This document shows, piece after piece, positions 9,603-59,864 of a stretch of 64,000 nucleotides of DNA; positions within the stretch are counted from its first letter, which is position 1, and the number at the start of each line of letters is the position of its first letter. The notes beneath the pieces were generated by a model that saw nothing but the letters and a program-made list of their open reading frames with translations, was not told the DNA's origin and made no database searches. The translations under genes were made by a program, and so were the position numbers. Source of the DNA: Octopus vulgaris (lineage: Eukaryota); the NCBI GenBank assembly GCA_951406725.2, contig OX597821.1:80848001-80912000 (forward strand). The letters are read 5' to 3'.

Positions 9603-12387
9603 CAGCAAACAATCAGCAAACAATCAACGCTACTGAGCAACAAAAAGAGAACGAAAATACTCCGCAAATATAACATCACAGAGAAAGATTTGCCTGAAAT
9701 AAAAGAAAAGCTGAAGCAAGATATCCTTGCCAAAGCACAAAGGATCCGCTGGTACAAGAAACGCCAACGCTTCTTTGAAGAAAATAAAAAGTTCAACTCC
9801 AACCCCAAAAAGTTCTACCAAGAACTGGGCAAAAATAAAATAGAAGTCACTGCAGCACCAACGGCAGAAGAATTGGAAGAATTCTGGAGAGAAATATGGT
9901 CGGCGAACGAACCACCAAAAAAAGGAGTATCAAAATAACAAATTCGGCATCTGAACAACTTTGGACCCCCATAACAACTGAAGAGGTCACCCAGGCACTG
10001 CAAAGACTAAGCAACTGGAAGGCACCTGGGCATGACAAGATCCCCAACTTCTGGTTGAAATATCTAACAGGAATGCACAAAAAGCTGGCTGAAAACTTTA
10101 ACAACGTACTAGCAGAGCCAGAGACAATGCCTGAATGGCTCACGAAGGGGAAAACCATCTTAATTCCCAAATCAAATGAAACAGAAAAACCAGAAAACTA
10201 CAGACCAATAACCTGCCTCCCTACTATGTTCAAGGCATTTACTGCAGTGATATCACAAAGGCTGAACAAGCACCTGGACGAAAACAGACTGTTCCCAGAA
10301 GAGCAGAAAGGATGCCGCAAAGGCTCATATGGCTGTAAAGATCAACTAATGATTAATAAAGCCATAACTGAAGACAGCCACAGAAAGAAGAAAAGCCTCA
10401 GTATGGCCTGGATTGACTACAAAAAGGCGTTTGATAGCATCCCCCACACATGGATCCTCGAAACACTAGCCATTAACAAAGTAGCACCAACAATCATAAA
10501 ATTCATAGAGCACTCTATGAATAAATGGCAAACAGTCCTACACCTCCAAACAAAAGAGGGACTCATGAAAACCAAAGACATCCCCATTAGAAGAGGAATA
10601 TTCCAGGGAGACACGCTCTCTCCACTCCTTTTCTGCTTGGCACTGTCACCTCTATCTGATATGCTAAATAGAACTGGATGCGGATATAAATGTTACGGCA
10701 AAACGATCAGCCACCTTTTATATATGGATGACCTAAAACTATACGCTGCAAATGACAAACAGCTGGAAACACTATTAAAGACAGTTCATGGATTTACCAA
10801 AGAAATAGATATGAAATTTGGATTAGAAAAATGCGCCAAAGTAACCATGAAAAGAGGAAAACTAGTTAAGAGTAACAACATCACACTAGATAAAACCAAT
10901 GAAATAAAAGAATTAGACCAAAGCCAAACTTACAAATACTTAGGAATCCATGAACTAGATAAGACACAACACACACAAATGAAAGAGAAAATAAAAAAAG
11001 AATATTATAGACGAGTTAGATCAATACTAAACACAGAGCTCAATGCTAAAAACAAGATAATAGGTATCAACACTTTAGCTGTCCCAGTTATAAGTTACAG
11101 CTACAATATCCTTAACTGGACACGAAATGAACTAACCAAAATAGATAGGAAAACAAGAAAAATAATGACAGGATCTAGGATGCATCACCCAAAATCTGAC
11201 ATAGAAAGACTATATATACAACGTATAGAAGGTGGTAGAAGCCTTATACAGCTGGAAAACTACTATAAAATAACCACCATAGGACTGCAAAAATATCTAC
11301 TTCAGAAGGAAGGAAAACTGATCCAGATAGCGGCAAAACACGAGCAAAACAAAAAACTGTTCTCAGTATTTAAGGAAGCTGACAAATACAAACAAGAAAT
11401 CATACCACCTAATAAATATGAAGAAGAAGAAGATGAAGAAACAACAAAAGCTATAAAACAAATGAAATCCAAACTAAAAATAGAACAGCAACGAACCATG
11501 ATAAAACGATGGCAAGAAAAGCCCCTTCATGGTAAATACTGGACTAAACTAAACGCAAAAGAAATAGACAAAGAAAAATCCCAGCAATGGTTGAGAAGCT
11601 CAGGACTCAAAGCAGAAACAGAGGGATTTAATTGCAGCACAAGACCAAAGCCTCCCCACCAGAAATTACCAAAAACATGTAATGAAAAGAAATATAACAA
11701 GTAACTGCAGAATATGTGGAGATGGACAAGAAACAATAAATCATATCTCTAGCTGCCCAGTCCTGGCTAAGAAGGAATATATTCACAGACATGACAGAGC
11801 TGGAACCTACATACATTGGAAGCTATGCCAACATTATGGAATAACAACAGAAAAAAGATGGTATAGGCACACACCAGAAAAGGTCACAGAAAACGAGAAA
11901 GCAACCATACTCTGGGATATGCCGATACACACAGACAGAGAAATTAAGGCCAACAGACCAGATATAGCTGTCAGAGACCATGAAGAAAAAAAATGCTTTC
12001 TAATTGATGTATCAATACCGGCTAATGACAACGTGTCTCTAAAAGAAATGGAGAAACTCTCAAAATACAAAGACCTGGAAATAGAGGTAACTAGAATGTG
12101 GAATCTGAAAACAGAAACAATTCCTATCATAGTAGGTGCATTAGGCATGATAAAAAAATATTCAGACAAATACATAACAAAAACACCAGGACTTACAAAC
12201 ACATATAACATACAGAAAATTGCACTACTAGGCACTGCACACATCCTACGCAGAACACTTTCCATACAATAACCATCAGAGCATCACAACAAATCACAGC
12301 ACATACCCAAGGCACACAGAGCTGCGCTCGGTAGTGAAGTGAAAGCACGCTATAAAAATAAAACTACTGAATAATAATAATAATAAT
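9601..12387 (+). mobile_element. 5'-truncated R4/Dong-type non-LTR retrotransposon (RT + CCHC + RLE endonuclease) inserted in (TAA)n
   Basis: KAPGHD, YRPITCLP, IDYKKAFDSI, GIFQGDTLSPLLF, YMDD; CRIC..ETINHISSC..RHD; RPDI..IDVSIP..KLSKY; (AAT)n on both flanks. Confidence 0.95.
9613..12272 (+). pseudogene. Frameshifted RT-RLE polyprotein of the R4/Dong-type element (ORF pieces 9690-9938, 9896-11704, 11682-12272)
   Basis: Domains are collinear across three frames; frameshifts near 9920 and 11630. Confidence 0.9.
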
Positions 12388-44623: not shown

Positions 44624-44662
<39 letters not shown>

Positions 44663-44789
44663 TAACTTGTTTCAGTCACTTGACTGTGGTCATGCAGAAG
44701 TACAGCGTTGAAAGGTTTATTCGAACAAATCGATCCGGGTACATTTTTCTTAAGTGTGATACTTTTTCTGTCGGTTCCTTTTGCCGAAA

Positions 44790-46080
44790 CTGGCTCTATG
44801 TAGACGACGGTGAACAGGTGTGGTCGTCGTTTGTGAGGCACGCTTTCCCGCAGCTCGTCTCCATGACCGAACTGCAGTCGTGGATCAAAAAGAGGCCGAG
44901 GAAGGGCGAATGGCACCGCGAGTGTCGCGTTACTCTCAAGCAAATCTGCCGTCCTGGGTCGACCTTGAGTGACTTCAACACAACCAAAGCATTCTATAGG
45001 GGATTAGTGGAGGGGAGGTACGACGACGAGCTCGGGGCGAACCTGGACGTCGACGAGGAGTACCTGACCCGCCTGTTCAGGACGACTTTCGGGCCAGGGC
45101 CCATGGACAACTTCCAGAGATCCCTGGCCTGGCAGTGTTACCGAGAAGCGCTACCCGTTCGGGATAAGCTCTACAGACACGGCTCGAGAAACACGGGGCC
45201 GACCTGCCCGAGATGCGGTCAGAGCGACGAAACCGTTCTGCACGCACTCGTGCAGTGTCCAACAATTTCCGACCTGTGGGCTTGTGTCGAACAACTGCTG
45301 TTACGTGTGGGACGAGTCGGTTTATCAGCTGAGTCTATCGTCAATATTGTCACGCCTCCTTCCTTCAAACGGGAAGGAAGAGCTATTTTCAGCATCCTTG
45401 TGGCTATGGCGAAAGAATGTATCTGGTGGACACGTCTGAAAGGATTGGAGACAAACACTTTCCTCTCTGGTCAATCTCTCATCAACTTCTTCAAGTACCA
45501 CTTGAAAAGGAAAGTGAGAGTAGAGAGGCAAGTTTTGTCTAGCGAATGTTTTAAAAAAAGATGGGTGAATGTAGCAAGGATGGCACGTATGAATGACGAA
45601 GCCACCTTGAGCATAGTCCTATGAACCCAGAAATTGAAAACAGAGGGTTACCCACTGGCAAACAAATGTGGTAACATATAACAATATTGACCAAGGTTAC
45701 CGTGGTCTTTTTCGTAGGCTTTTCTTCCCACGGATAAACCTTACTTGCTTTCCCCTTTACACCATATATCATAACACTGTGATACACGATCCCTATTGAT
45801 AGTTCCTTTTTTTTCTTTTTTTTTTCCTCTTCCCCCTTTTTTCCCCTTTTTCTTCTTTATTCATTTCTCTTTTCTTTTGTTCCTTTCCCTTTCTTTTTTT
45901 TTCTTTTATTCTTTTTATTTTTTATTCTATTTTTTTTCTTTTTTTTGTTCTTTTCTTCCCTTTTACGATCCCTCTTGATCGAAAACCTACGCCACCCCCT
46001 TTTTTTCATCCCCCCAAAGAAAAGCTCTACCTTGTAACTTGTCCCATCTGTGTGCAGCCCTGTGTGGCCAATAAAGAAAC
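44790..46080 (+). mobile_element. 5'-truncated L1/Tx1-clade LINE: ORF2 C-terminus (zf-RVT-type) plus 3' UTR
   Basis: LAWQ..REALPVRDKL...CPRCGQSDETVLHALVQCP..W; stop at 45624; T-rich UTR, AATAAA 46070-46075, (TATC)n tail. Confidence 0.88.
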
Positions 46081-56451: not shown

Positions 56452-56533
56452 ATATATCATCATCATCATCATCATCGTTTAAAGCGGACGTTAAACGATG
56501 ATGATGATGATGATGATATATATATATATATAT

Positions 56534-56893
56534 ACAATTGCAGCGTGGAAGGTGTTTGTAAGCCATTTAAGAAACACACAAAAGCCGTTCGATTCACTTC
56601 AACATTTAAGTTTAATTTGTCAAAGTATTTTCGTCGCTAAAATCCGCGACCTGTTCACTGACAAAAATCCGTGCTGCAGCACAAAAATCCGAGATGCAGC
56701 ACGGATTTTTGTCAGTGAACAGGTCACGGATTTTAGCGACGAAAATATTTTGACAAATTAAACTTAAATGTTGAAGTGAATCGAACGGCTTTTGTGTTTC
56801 TTAAATGGCTTACAAACACCTTCCACGCTGCAATTGTTTTCGTTCCAGCACACGATCTCAGATCAAATCACTTGCTACGCAAGTCCATCTCCG
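56534..56893 (+). mobile_element. (TA)n-flanked palindromic pLTR-like insertion (145-bp arms)
   Basis: Arms 56534-56678 / 56695-56837 with a 16-nt spacer, then a ~55-nt tail to (TA)n. Confidence 0.9.
56708..56757 (+). ncRNA. Minimal type I hammerhead motif with G3-C8 covariation (second copy on minus, 56616-56665)
   Basis: TTTGTCA-GTGAACA-g-GTC(A/G)C-ggatttta-GCGAC-GAAA-ATAT-TT^-TGACAAA. Confidence 0.72.
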
Positions 56894-56914
56894 TATATAT
56901 GTATATATATATAC

Positions 56915-56959
<45 letters not shown>

Positions 56960-56961
<2 letters not shown>

Positions 56962-57360
56962 CTTTTACTTGTTTCAGTCAGTTGACTGCGGCCATGCTGG
57001 AGCACCGCCTTTGGTTGAGCAAATCGACCCCAGGTCTTATTCTTTGGAAGCCTAGTACTTAATCTATCGGTCTCTTTTGCCGAACCGCTAAGTTACGGGG
57101 ATGTAAACACCCCACCATCGGTTGTCAAGTGATGTTGGGAGGTGGGGACAAACAGACTCACAAACATACACGCACACATATATATATACATATAAACGAC
57201 GGGCTTCTTTCAGTTTCCGTCTACCAAATCCACTCACAAGGCTTTGGTCGGCCCGAGGCTATAGTAGAAGGCACTTGCCCAAGGTGCCACGGAGTGGGAC
57301 TGAAGCCGGAACCATGTGGATGGTAAGCAAGCTACTTACCACACAGCCACTCCTACGCCT
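56960..57360 (-). mobile_element. SINE family A, full length
   Basis: Head and tail present. Confidence 0.9.
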
Positions 57361-58178: not shown

Positions 58179-59864
58179 CAGGCATACCTCACCCTACGTC
58201 ATTAATTGGTTCCAGGAGACGCGACGTACGCCGAAAAACGACTTAAGCCGAATTAACTTGTCTCTAGGCTAAAACAATAATAACCATTCCCAGTTCTGTA
58301 CTTTATGAATACACTTTCAATAATACTTGGTTGATAAAAACCTATTTTAAGCTTACAAAGAAATAATTTTTATTTTTTAATACAGTACAATAAAATATAA
58401 AAAAAAGTAATCTAAATTTACGAATACAATTTGGCGGTGTTTACCGTGCGTCGCGGACGCTTTATTTATGAATGCGGTTTATAATAAGACATGGTAAAAT
58501 AAAAACCCTTTTTAAGCTTAAAAAACAAATTCAGTAATTATTATTATTTTGCAATACGTACATACAATTTGGTGGTTTACATCGCGGATGTAGATGGCTG
58601 TGGATCGTCAACATCAACAGTTGACTCTGGCAGTTCTTGTTGTTCGATGCGCTCAAAAAACCTGTTGAAAGTTCCTTGAACTGTCTTCTTTTCCTTAAGG
58701 ATTACATTATAAGGAGCAAAAGCTTCATGACAAGCCTTAATCTTGGAAAAGTGTTGAGCATTTGGATCCATATCTTCAAACATAGAAATACCTTTTTCGC
58801 TATATGCAAATGCTTTCTGCATTTTCTTAATGGTAAAGTGACGTGGCTCAGGTTCGATCCCTCTTCTTTATTTGACTGTTCGTGAAGCTCTACCAAATCC
58901 TCGTTCGTCAAGGGCTGCTTGTCTTTTTCAAATAAATCTGTGAAATCCTCCTCCAAGTGATAACTTCTTCGCTCCTTAAATCTCATGAACCATCCTTGAC
59001 TTACCTTGAACTCTATATTTTTCTCATCTGGGTATTTTTTCTTCAGGTCCTCAAACAAAGACACCGCTTTCTCTTGAATGATTTCTTGACTAATAGTAGC
59101 ATCCTCATGAGTCAACCTAACAATCCAATGAGAAAGAAGACTTTCCATTTCTTCAAAGATTTTGCCCTTTTTCTTATTGATGATAGTGTTCTTCATCCCC
59201 AGGGCTTCAGATTTAAAATGTGCTAAAATTTTGTCCTTATTATGTTCAATCGTCGATAGAGTTGTCCGACTCATCCCAAAAGATTGTGCAATTGCTACCA
59301 CTTTTTCACCTTTTCCATGGCCAGTTTATCTTTCAGCTTTATAGCATGACGCTTAGCACTTTCACTATGAATATCCATAGAAGCCATGGGGGCGAAACAT
59401 AAAGTCACAAATGAATGAGAATGGGAAAGTAGCCGATAAACAGACGTAAACAAATCTGAATTCAAAACAATCGCGGGAATCACGAGTGACAACGACGCCT
59501 AACGGTAGATATTGGAACTACAGTGCAATATGAGCTCCGAAAGACCGATAAATAAGACAACACAACTGATTTCATGACTTCATTCACTGAGCTACACTAC
59601 TTTATGGTGTGTGTCTTAACGTTTACTGTACGTATTTTAATATGATTTCATATGTTTTTATTCTTATTTATTGTAAACTAACATGATTTTATGTGCTTTT
59701 AACGGTTTTCTAGTGATTTTACGATTCTAATATTCGCGTTGTATAGACGTAAAGTCGAGTAAAATGTCTTAACTTGATTTTTATTTTTCCATATATTGTT
59801 TTTGAAAACCGACGTATACTCGAGAACAACTTAAATCGAGACGATCTAAGCCGAGGTATGCCTA
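58179..59864 (-). mobile_element. Internally deleted Tigger/pogo transposon
   Basis: TIR CAGGCATACCTC / GAGGTATGCCT(A), TA TSD; CENP-B-type HTH (IAQSFGMSRTTLSTI; MESLLSHWI; FKVSQGWFMRFK); DDE region absent. Confidence 0.92.

What the first reader, a model, noticed from the sequence alone, without database searches (positions are those of the whole stretch)
56616..56757. Natural-looking G3-C8 hammerhead core variant, present twice back-to-back
Seen: a perfect 7-bp stem I (TTTGTCA/TGACAAA), a 5-bp stem II (GTCGC/GCGAC in the minus copy, one mismatch in the plus copy), GAAA, and a palindromic AATATT stem III in the plus copy surround the core GUGAACA in place of CUGANGA. The only two core changes are at positions 3 and 8, and they are mutually compensatory. 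Established: C3-G8 is a tertiary Watson-Crick pair in the active hammerhead, and compensatory swaps restore some activity. Inference: a double swap in an otherwise intact fold suggests selection for catalysis. CUGANGA-based searches would miss this family. I know of natural U-A variants, and G-C seems rare, but I cannot check novelty here.
Basis: partly seen in the sequence, partly recalled or inferred. Interest (0 to 1): 0.85.

Follow-up and report, generated by a model that had tools for sequence, protein, structure and literature searches.

The report
Swapped-core hammerhead in active Penelope retroelement
The stretch is a short, folded-back insertion of a very abundant Penelope-type jumping gene whose terminal repeat carries a hammerhead-ribozyme motif with two paired core letters swapped (G3-C8 instead of C3-G8); related elements keep the pair as C-G or U-A, so the pair is likely under selection and the motif is predicted, not shown, to cut RNA.

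Summary
Observation confirmed, with two corrections. Both arms carry a minimal type-I hammerhead with core GUGAACA. The arms point away from each other, so one transcript would form a ~150-bp hairpin, not a dimer. The locus is a 5'-truncated, inverted insertion of the pseudo-LTR of a recently active Penelope-like element (RT + GIY-YIG). G3-C8 is the family state: 7,291 of 8,030 exact genomic matches, and 64 of 70 copies sampled without regard to the core. Its two sister families in the same genome keep C3-G8 (support 99). Of four metagenome relatives with the motif, two have C3-G8 and two U3-A8. Across lineages the pair is always Watson-Crick. Cleavage is untested. Natural U3-A8 and engineered G3-C8 rescue are published; my searches found no natural G3-C8 report, but the most relevant paper was unavailable. 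This scan noted G3-C8 earlier on other DNA (two unchecked notes). New variant of a known kind.

The parts
56534..56678 (-). Inverted, 5'-truncated pLTR arm without the tail; ends at the first of the family's two preferred end points
   Evidence: end points bimodal
56616..56665 (-). Hammerhead copy, minus strand (G3 56658, C8 56653, extra G 56651, perfect stem II, private U16.2>C at 56625; predicted cut between 56623 and 56622)
56679..56694 (.). 16-nt junction between the arms, made of short re-copied pieces of the arm
   Evidence: junction origin is inference
56695..56895 (+). 5'-truncated pLTR arm with the ~58-nt tail; 11 substitutions and 2 small indels against the pLTR of near-full-length copy L090 over 200 nt
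56708..56757 (+). Hammerhead copy, plus strand: stem I 7 bp, core GUGAACA 56715-56721, extra G 56722, stem II with one mismatch, GAAA, palindrome AATATT 56744-56749, predicted cut after 56750
56805..56894 (+). First 30 codons of the element's RT-endonuclease ORF (ATG about 55 nt after the predicted cut); the tail is part of them
   Evidence: homologous to the family C N-terminus, 10/25 identical, E 8e-5 pairwise
56517..56533 (.). (TA)n target, left flank; a target-site duplication cannot be read in it
56896..56957 (.). (TA)n target, right flank

Best explanation
The two motifs are copies of the pseudo-LTR hammerhead of a recently active Penelope-like retrotransposon, in which the core pair is G3-C8 where its sister families have C3-G8, and the motif is predicted to self-cleave weakly after U17 in the full-length element's RNA. 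In a complete unit (pLTR-ORF-pLTR, hammerheads 4,261 nt apart in the same direction) two copies would pair through the AAUAUU palindrome, or be helped by the element's own protein, and would release a unit-length RNA from read-through transcripts (inferred from published PLE hammerheads). The double swap arose on the stem of this family and was kept through successive subfamilies, likely because the active fold needs the 3-8 pair. The window's own pair is a dead by-product: reverse transcription started at the two tail ends, aborted early and inverted, and a transcript across it would fold into one long hairpin.
For: Shown: family size (10,962 matches to a downstream anchor; 7,291 G3-C8 of 8,030 core-frame matches); the arm lies beside the endonuclease region in 27 of 30 loci found by protein; 1025-aa open frame with YVDD, CX3CxxC linker and GIY-YIG PF01541 E 1.8e-5; complete unit with two direct G3-C8 hammerheads, ORF frameshifted (L378); arm ends bimodal, 23 and 28 of 52 at two sites about 59 nt apart. 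Sister families B and C carry the homologous motif with C3-G8, the same extra G, A-U for G-C at stem II pair 4, and a homologous N-terminus; tree: A 100, B+C 100, A+(B,C) 99. Metagenome relatives: C3-G8 in L288 and L297, U3-A8 in L290 and L286. Within the family, variants shared by at least 12% of 70 copies fall on 11 of 83 loop/flank positions and 1 of 42 core/stem positions, that one keeping a U-G pair (Fisher p 0.015, or 0.059 if counted). Published: PLE minimal hammerheads have the extra nucleotide, G10.1-C11.1 and palindromic helix III and cleave weakly as dimers (PMC4209133); in a PLE hammerhead C3G and G8C each abolish cleavage, the double mutant partly restores it, and cleavage needs the PLE protein (PMC11167929).
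Against: No cleavage was measured. No raw RNA reads were available and no holder was on record as RNA. The engineered G3-C8 pair only partly rescues, cleavage was not needed for insertion in vitro, and no RNA-seq reads ended at the cut site in that PLE (PMC11167929). G3-G8 copies are more common than a symmetric mutation model predicts (29 of the first 100 of 468 non-C8 matches, against 14 C3-C8 in the first 100 of 271 non-G3 matches); no diagnostic allele unites them, but small pair-breaking lineages that still moved are not excluded. Only 7 lineages have a known 3-8 state, deep tree nodes are weak (30-47), L286 also has C at position 9, and 8 of 12 metagenome loci gave no motif. The within-family test is marginal and its 12% threshold was chosen after seeing the table. 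Rfam Hammerhead_1 does not match at E up to 10.
Confidence: 0.72

Rival explanations
1. Fold kept, cutting turned down or irrelevant: the 3-8 pair is selected because the folded motif is a binding or positioning element for the PLE protein (or for translation of the ORF that starts about 55 nt downstream), and the swap is tolerated or favoured because it weakens self-cleavage.
For: In the one PLE tested, uncut RNA was the main substrate and catalytic mutants inserted normally in vitro; the double swap only partly rescues (PMC11167929). Naiad PLEs thrive without canonical hammerheads (PMC8557442). This family is larger than the canonical-core family B by exact counts (7,291 against 343 with a pattern that catches only part of B).
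Against: The 3-8 pair is known as an active-site contact, and all other catalytic positions (U4, G5, A6, A9, G12-A14, A15.1-U16.1, H17) are also unchanged across subfamilies. The copy-number comparison is not like for like.
Confidence: 0.18
2. Neutral relic: the hammerhead no longer matters; two chance transversions were fixed in the family founder and happen to pair.
For: G3-G8 copies exist in excess; private changes hit structured and other positions at the same rate (65/2380 against 123/4318).
Against: Equal private rates are expected of dead copies. Two changes landing on 3 and 8 among 11 conserved positions and pairing has a chance near 1 in 165 (my arithmetic), with the rest of the core intact over a stem branch of 0.27 substitutions per residue; U3-A8 in two other lineages repeats the pattern.
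Confidence: 0.08
3. A foldback or MITE-like DNA element whose inverted arms mimic a hammerhead by chance.
For: Long near-perfect inverted repeat in (TA)n.
Against: The arm is the terminal repeat of an RT-GIY-YIG ORF, occurs as direct repeats around it, has variable inner ends and a one-sided tail; descriptor never hit in shuffles.
Confidence: 0.01

Closest known systems
Minimal type-I hammerheads of Penelope-like elements (min-HHR; PMC4209133, main text parts 1-2 of 4 and supplement file 2 parts 1-2 of 3 read)
   Same: Position in the pLTR, type-I topology, extra nucleotide between 9 and 10.1, G10.1-C11.1, palindromic helix III, thousands of solo copies, pairs on opposite strands in truncated elements.
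   Different: G3-C8 core. In the text layer of the 56-motif alignment all cores begin with C or U (two U3-A8, one U3-G8), none with G; the extra nucleotide is G, outside their H consensus though present in their Nasonia row; stem I is long (7 bp).
Natural U3-A8 core variants (PMC3088659 section 8 read; PMC4209133)
   Same: Compensatory change of the same tertiary pair in nature.
   Different: U3-A8 needs two transitions and can pass through a U-G wobble; G3-C8 needs two transversions through a G-G or C-C mismatch.
Engineered C3G/G8C double mutant, tested in the Anolis Poseidon PLE hammerhead (PMC11167929, passages) and mentioned in PMC3884650 (passages)
   Same: Same two letters; partial rescue of cleavage; ORF start and two reverse-transcription start sites near the hammerhead.
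   Different: Here it is the natural state of a family with more than 7,000 copies; activity not measured.
Neptune/Nematis-type EN+ Penelope-like elements (PMC8557442, passages)
   Same: RT with C-terminal GIY-YIG, CX2-5CxxC linker, CCHH residues, (TA)n targets, tandem and inverted 5'-truncated copies, one-sided tail.
   Different: Tail about 58-60 nt rather than 30-40; DKS at the DKG motif; clade not resolved between Neptune and Nematis.

Membership tests
Hammerhead ribozyme, minimal type I of PLEs | Stems I and II closing the junction, G10.1-C11.1 | tested here: met
   (monomer stem I probability 0.93-0.94 for plus and full-length copies, 0.6 for minus)
Hammerhead ribozyme, minimal type I of PLEs | Literal CUGANGA core | tested here: not met
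   GUGAACA; hence filed as a variant that works like a hammerhead, not as a canonical member
Hammerhead ribozyme, minimal type I of PLEs | Watson-Crick pair between 3 and 8 | tested here: met
   G-C possible; C-G or U-A in 6 of 6 other lineages with a readable motif; pairing itself is inferred from covariation
Hammerhead ribozyme, minimal type I of PLEs | U4 G5 A6, A9, G12 A13 A14, A15.1-U16.1, H17 | tested here: met
Hammerhead ribozyme, minimal type I of PLEs | Extra nucleotide after A9 and palindromic helix III | tested here: met
   G 56722; AATATT in plus copy and family; broken in the minus copy
Hammerhead ribozyme, minimal type I of PLEs | Located in the pLTR of an RT-EN element | tested here: met
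Hammerhead ribozyme, minimal type I of PLEs | Self-cleavage after H17 (dimer or protein-assisted) | not testable with these tools
   only assembled contigs, no raw RNA reads
Rfam RF00163 Hammerhead_1 | Match to the covariance model | tested here: not met
   no hit at gathering score or at E up to 10
EN+ Penelope-like element | Single ORF with RT and C-terminal GIY-YIG, CCHH residues | tested here: met
   P0001: YVDD 641, PF01541 915-1005 E 1.8e-5, two C between VY and YIG, HAVDCH 965; Pfam RVT_1 not hit, RT call rests on motifs and homologues
EN+ Penelope-like element | Direct pLTRs, inverted 5'-truncated copies, one-sided tail | tested here: met
Neptune or Nematis clade | CX2-5CxxC linker | tested here: met
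   CQSNCAVC at 896
Neptune or Nematis clade | Placement with named reference elements | not tested
   no named reference PLE proteins were in the tree

The most novel reading that the evidence does not exclude
First natural G3-C8 hammerhead fixed in a high-copy, still-amplifying retroelement family, in a clade that has tried all three of C-G, U-A and G-C at this tertiary pair: evolutionary proof that the catalytically active fold of PLE minimal hammerheads is selected in vivo even though cleavage was dispensable for insertion in vitro, and a sign that a whole class of G3-C8 ribozymes has been invisible to CUGANGA/UUGANAA searches.
Probability: 0.45. Interest if true: 0.68.

Novelty: new variant of a known kind. 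Interest (0 to 1): 0.5.

Why it matters
The in vivo role of PLE minimal hammerheads is called unknown in reviews (PMC7761336), and one biochemical study found cleavage unnecessary for insertion (PMC11167929). A two-transversion swap that restores an active-site pair, fixed in a family of thousands of copies and polarised by sister families in the same genome, argues that the active fold matters. It gives a matched natural set (families A, B, C) for a direct test, and says that search descriptors should allow any pair at 3-8. The window's own locus is an ordinary dead insertion.

Tried and rejected
Rfam: no hammerhead hit in the window; the genome-wide RF00163 search gave 6 hits from other families. 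Pfam on the decayed fragments of L031: 0 of 3. My first motif regex returned nothing through a fault of its own and was replaced. Relatives in prokaryote genome contigs and viral contigs: none. Expression and cut site: no RNA holder listed, only contigs, no places where many molecules begin or end; not evidence either way. Runs of four coded organisms hold the family; no difference at core positions was among those listed, but 51 rows were cut and cover is thin there. Idea that the window pair is a dimeric ribozyme: rejected, whole-locus hairpin -255 kcal/mol, stem I probability 6e-45. Thermodynamic co-folding of two monomers did not give the helix-III dimer as the lowest-energy form and gained only about 2 kcal/mol: uninformative. 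Idea that a C3-G8 ancestor survives inside family A: 4 of 4 C3-G8 hits checked belong to family B. Idea that G3-G8 copies form one intermediate lineage: no diagnostic allele among 24 G8 copies. MAFFT misaligned L290, so pair states were read from the descriptor instead. Papers not held: Lunse et al. on PLE hammerhead variants (PMC5785218), Przybilski and Hammann on 3-8 exchanges (PMC1986816), Martick and Scott (PMC4447102), PMC4008931; supplement file 1 of PMC4209133 and all figures were not seen; any of these may bear on novelty or on the size of the rescue.

Full report
Observation. On the plus strand: stem I 56708-56714 with 56751-56757, core GUGAACA 56715-56721, stem II with one mismatch, GAAA, the palindrome AATATT and U17 at 56750. 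The minus copy has a perfect stem II but a private change at 16.2. A descriptor that allows any Watson-Crick pair at 3-8 finds only these 2 sites in the window, and none in 5000 arm shuffles or 20 window shuffles. The two copies are the arms of one inverted duplication. A transcript across it folds into one hairpin of -255 kcal/mol in which hammerhead stem I has probability 6e-45, so the pair is not a dimeric ribozyme.

What it is. The arm is a large repeat family: 1,407 candidates by DNA search and 10,962 exact matches to a 19-nt anchor. Following a longer copy upstream led to a GIY-YIG-like region. Searching with it gave 6,063 candidates, many of the 150 scored with the same score and long open frames; 27 of the 30 loci returned hold the arm. 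One copy has a 1025-residue open frame, the first 25 or so residues of which come from an inversion, with YVDD, a CX3CxxC linker and a GIY-YIG domain (E 1.8e-5). L378 is a whole unit: two identical G3-C8 hammerheads in the same direction, 4,261 nt apart, around a frameshifted ORF. The ORF starts about 55 nt after the predicted cut, so window 56805-56894 is its first 30 codons. Arms end at two sites about 59 nt apart (23 and 28 of 52), the left arm of the window at the first and the right arm at the second. Truncation, inversion, a one-sided tail and (TA)n targets are the published marks of PLEs (PMC8557442, passages). The host is probably an octopus: the best database homologue is labelled Octopus vulgaris and is 85-90% identical to family C of this genome; this is inference.

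Is G3-C8 the family state? In a fixed 19-nt frame the genome has 7,291 G3-C8, 468 G3 with another letter at 8, and 271 with another letter at 3; reversed-pattern controls gave 0-2. In 96 copies picked by a downstream anchor (the first 96 of 10,962, all on contig 1), 70 cover the motif: 64 are G3-C8 and 6 carry six different single changes. Private changes hit core and stems as often as other positions (65/2380 against 123/4318), as expected of dead copies. Variants shared by at least 12% of copies, which mark successive source elements, fall on 11 of 83 loop and flank positions but on 1 of 42 core and stem positions, and that one keeps a U-G pair (p 0.015, or 0.059 if counted; threshold set after seeing the table).

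Is the swap compensatory? A pattern with C3-G8 found a second family, B (343 matches; 29 of 30 loci read are of it), and its endonuclease led to a third, C. Both have the motif at the same place, with the same extra G, an A-U pair for G-C in stem II, a homologous N-terminus and, read by eye, the same two end points. In a tree of 38 rows over the last 455 residues, family A is one clade (100), B and C are sisters (100) and the three group at 99; deeper nodes are weak. Of 12 metagenome loci with related ORFs, 4 show the motif behind the ORF: C3-G8 in L288 and L297, U3-A8 in L290 and L286, the last also with C at 9. So 7 of 7 lineages have a Watson-Crick pair, in three forms, and G3-C8 is most simply derived on the stem of family A. 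Against a clean story: G3-G8 copies are about 3-4 times more frequent than C3-C8 (estimated from the first 100 rows); they sit on all older backgrounds with no diagnostic allele, and I cannot say whether this is a mutation hot spot or small lineages that moved without the pair.

Mechanism. Shown: anatomy, location, family state, covariation. From literature: PLE minimal hammerheads cleave weakly and as dimers (PMC4209133, parts 1-2 of 4 read; PMC6765202, passages); in a PLE hammerhead C3G and G8C each kill cleavage, the double mutant partly restores it, cleavage needs the element's protein, and cleavage was not needed for insertion in vitro (PMC11167929, passages). Inferred: the family A motif cuts after U17 in transcripts of tandem units and releases unit-length RNA, and the pair is kept for the active fold (0.72). 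The main rival is a fold kept for protein binding with little cutting (0.18). No raw RNA reads were available to look for cut ends.

Comparison and novelty. It works like a PLE minimal hammerhead and meets every structural feature but the literal CUGANGA; Rfam Hammerhead_1 does not match. Natural U3-A8 is published (PMC3088659 section 8; PMC4209133). Searches for G3-C8 wordings and GUGANCA strings found only an engineered variant (PMC3884650, passages; PMC11167929); the text layer of the 56-motif PLE alignment has no G3 core; a search for cephalopod hammerheads found nothing relevant beyond PMC8557442. The paper most likely to list such variants (PMC5785218) was not held, so absence from print is not established. 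Also seen: part 1 of 5 of bioRxiv 10.64898/2026.07.22.740005 and passages of PMC6155905 and PMC7761336. Two earlier, unchecked notes of this scan describe a G3-C8 core with an extra nucleotide behind Penelope-like RTs in other genomes; none concerns this sequence or genome. If they hold, the swap is recurrent rather than unique.

Verdict. Real feature; new variant of a known kind; well supported by comparison, untested at the bench. Interest 0.5.

Noticed in passing
L103:1760-3024 (G000:C28, near 4,996,600-4,997,900): Eight direct tandem copies of the hammerhead-bearing arm, 166-192 nt apart and separated by (TA)n: a retrozyme-like array and the best natural substrate for a dimer test.
   Followed up: partly
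L102:1890-2061, L143-L167, L274-L285: G3-G8 copies in excess over C3-C8; none on the youngest loop-II background; no diagnostic allele. Unexplained.
   Followed up: partly
L122, L267, L269: Three family A copies with U3-G8, all three also with the stem I A1.3>G variant (10 of 70 in the plain sample): possibly a small wobble-pair lineage.
   Followed up: partly
window 56837-56895 and family copies: The tail is about 58-60 nt, longer than the 30-40 nt usually given for PLEs, and its two ends appear to sit at the same codons in families A, B and C.
   Followed up: partly
L082-L087: Six canonical-core type-I hammerheads of other families in this genome pass the Rfam cut-off; their elements were not traced.
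   Followed up: no
window 56455-56516: Small palindrome beside the insertion: (CAT)n and (ATG)n arms around a 20-nt core, inside (TA)n.
   Followed up: no
window about 56960-57360: Piece of an abundant SINE-like repeat that also flanks many other loci; label from appearance, not tested.
   Followed up: no
window 9839-11704 (+), 44650-45624 (+), 58702-59325 (-): Other mobile-element fragments: RVT_1 reverse transcriptase, zf-RVT, and Tc5/CENP-B transposase DNA-binding domains.
   Followed up: partly
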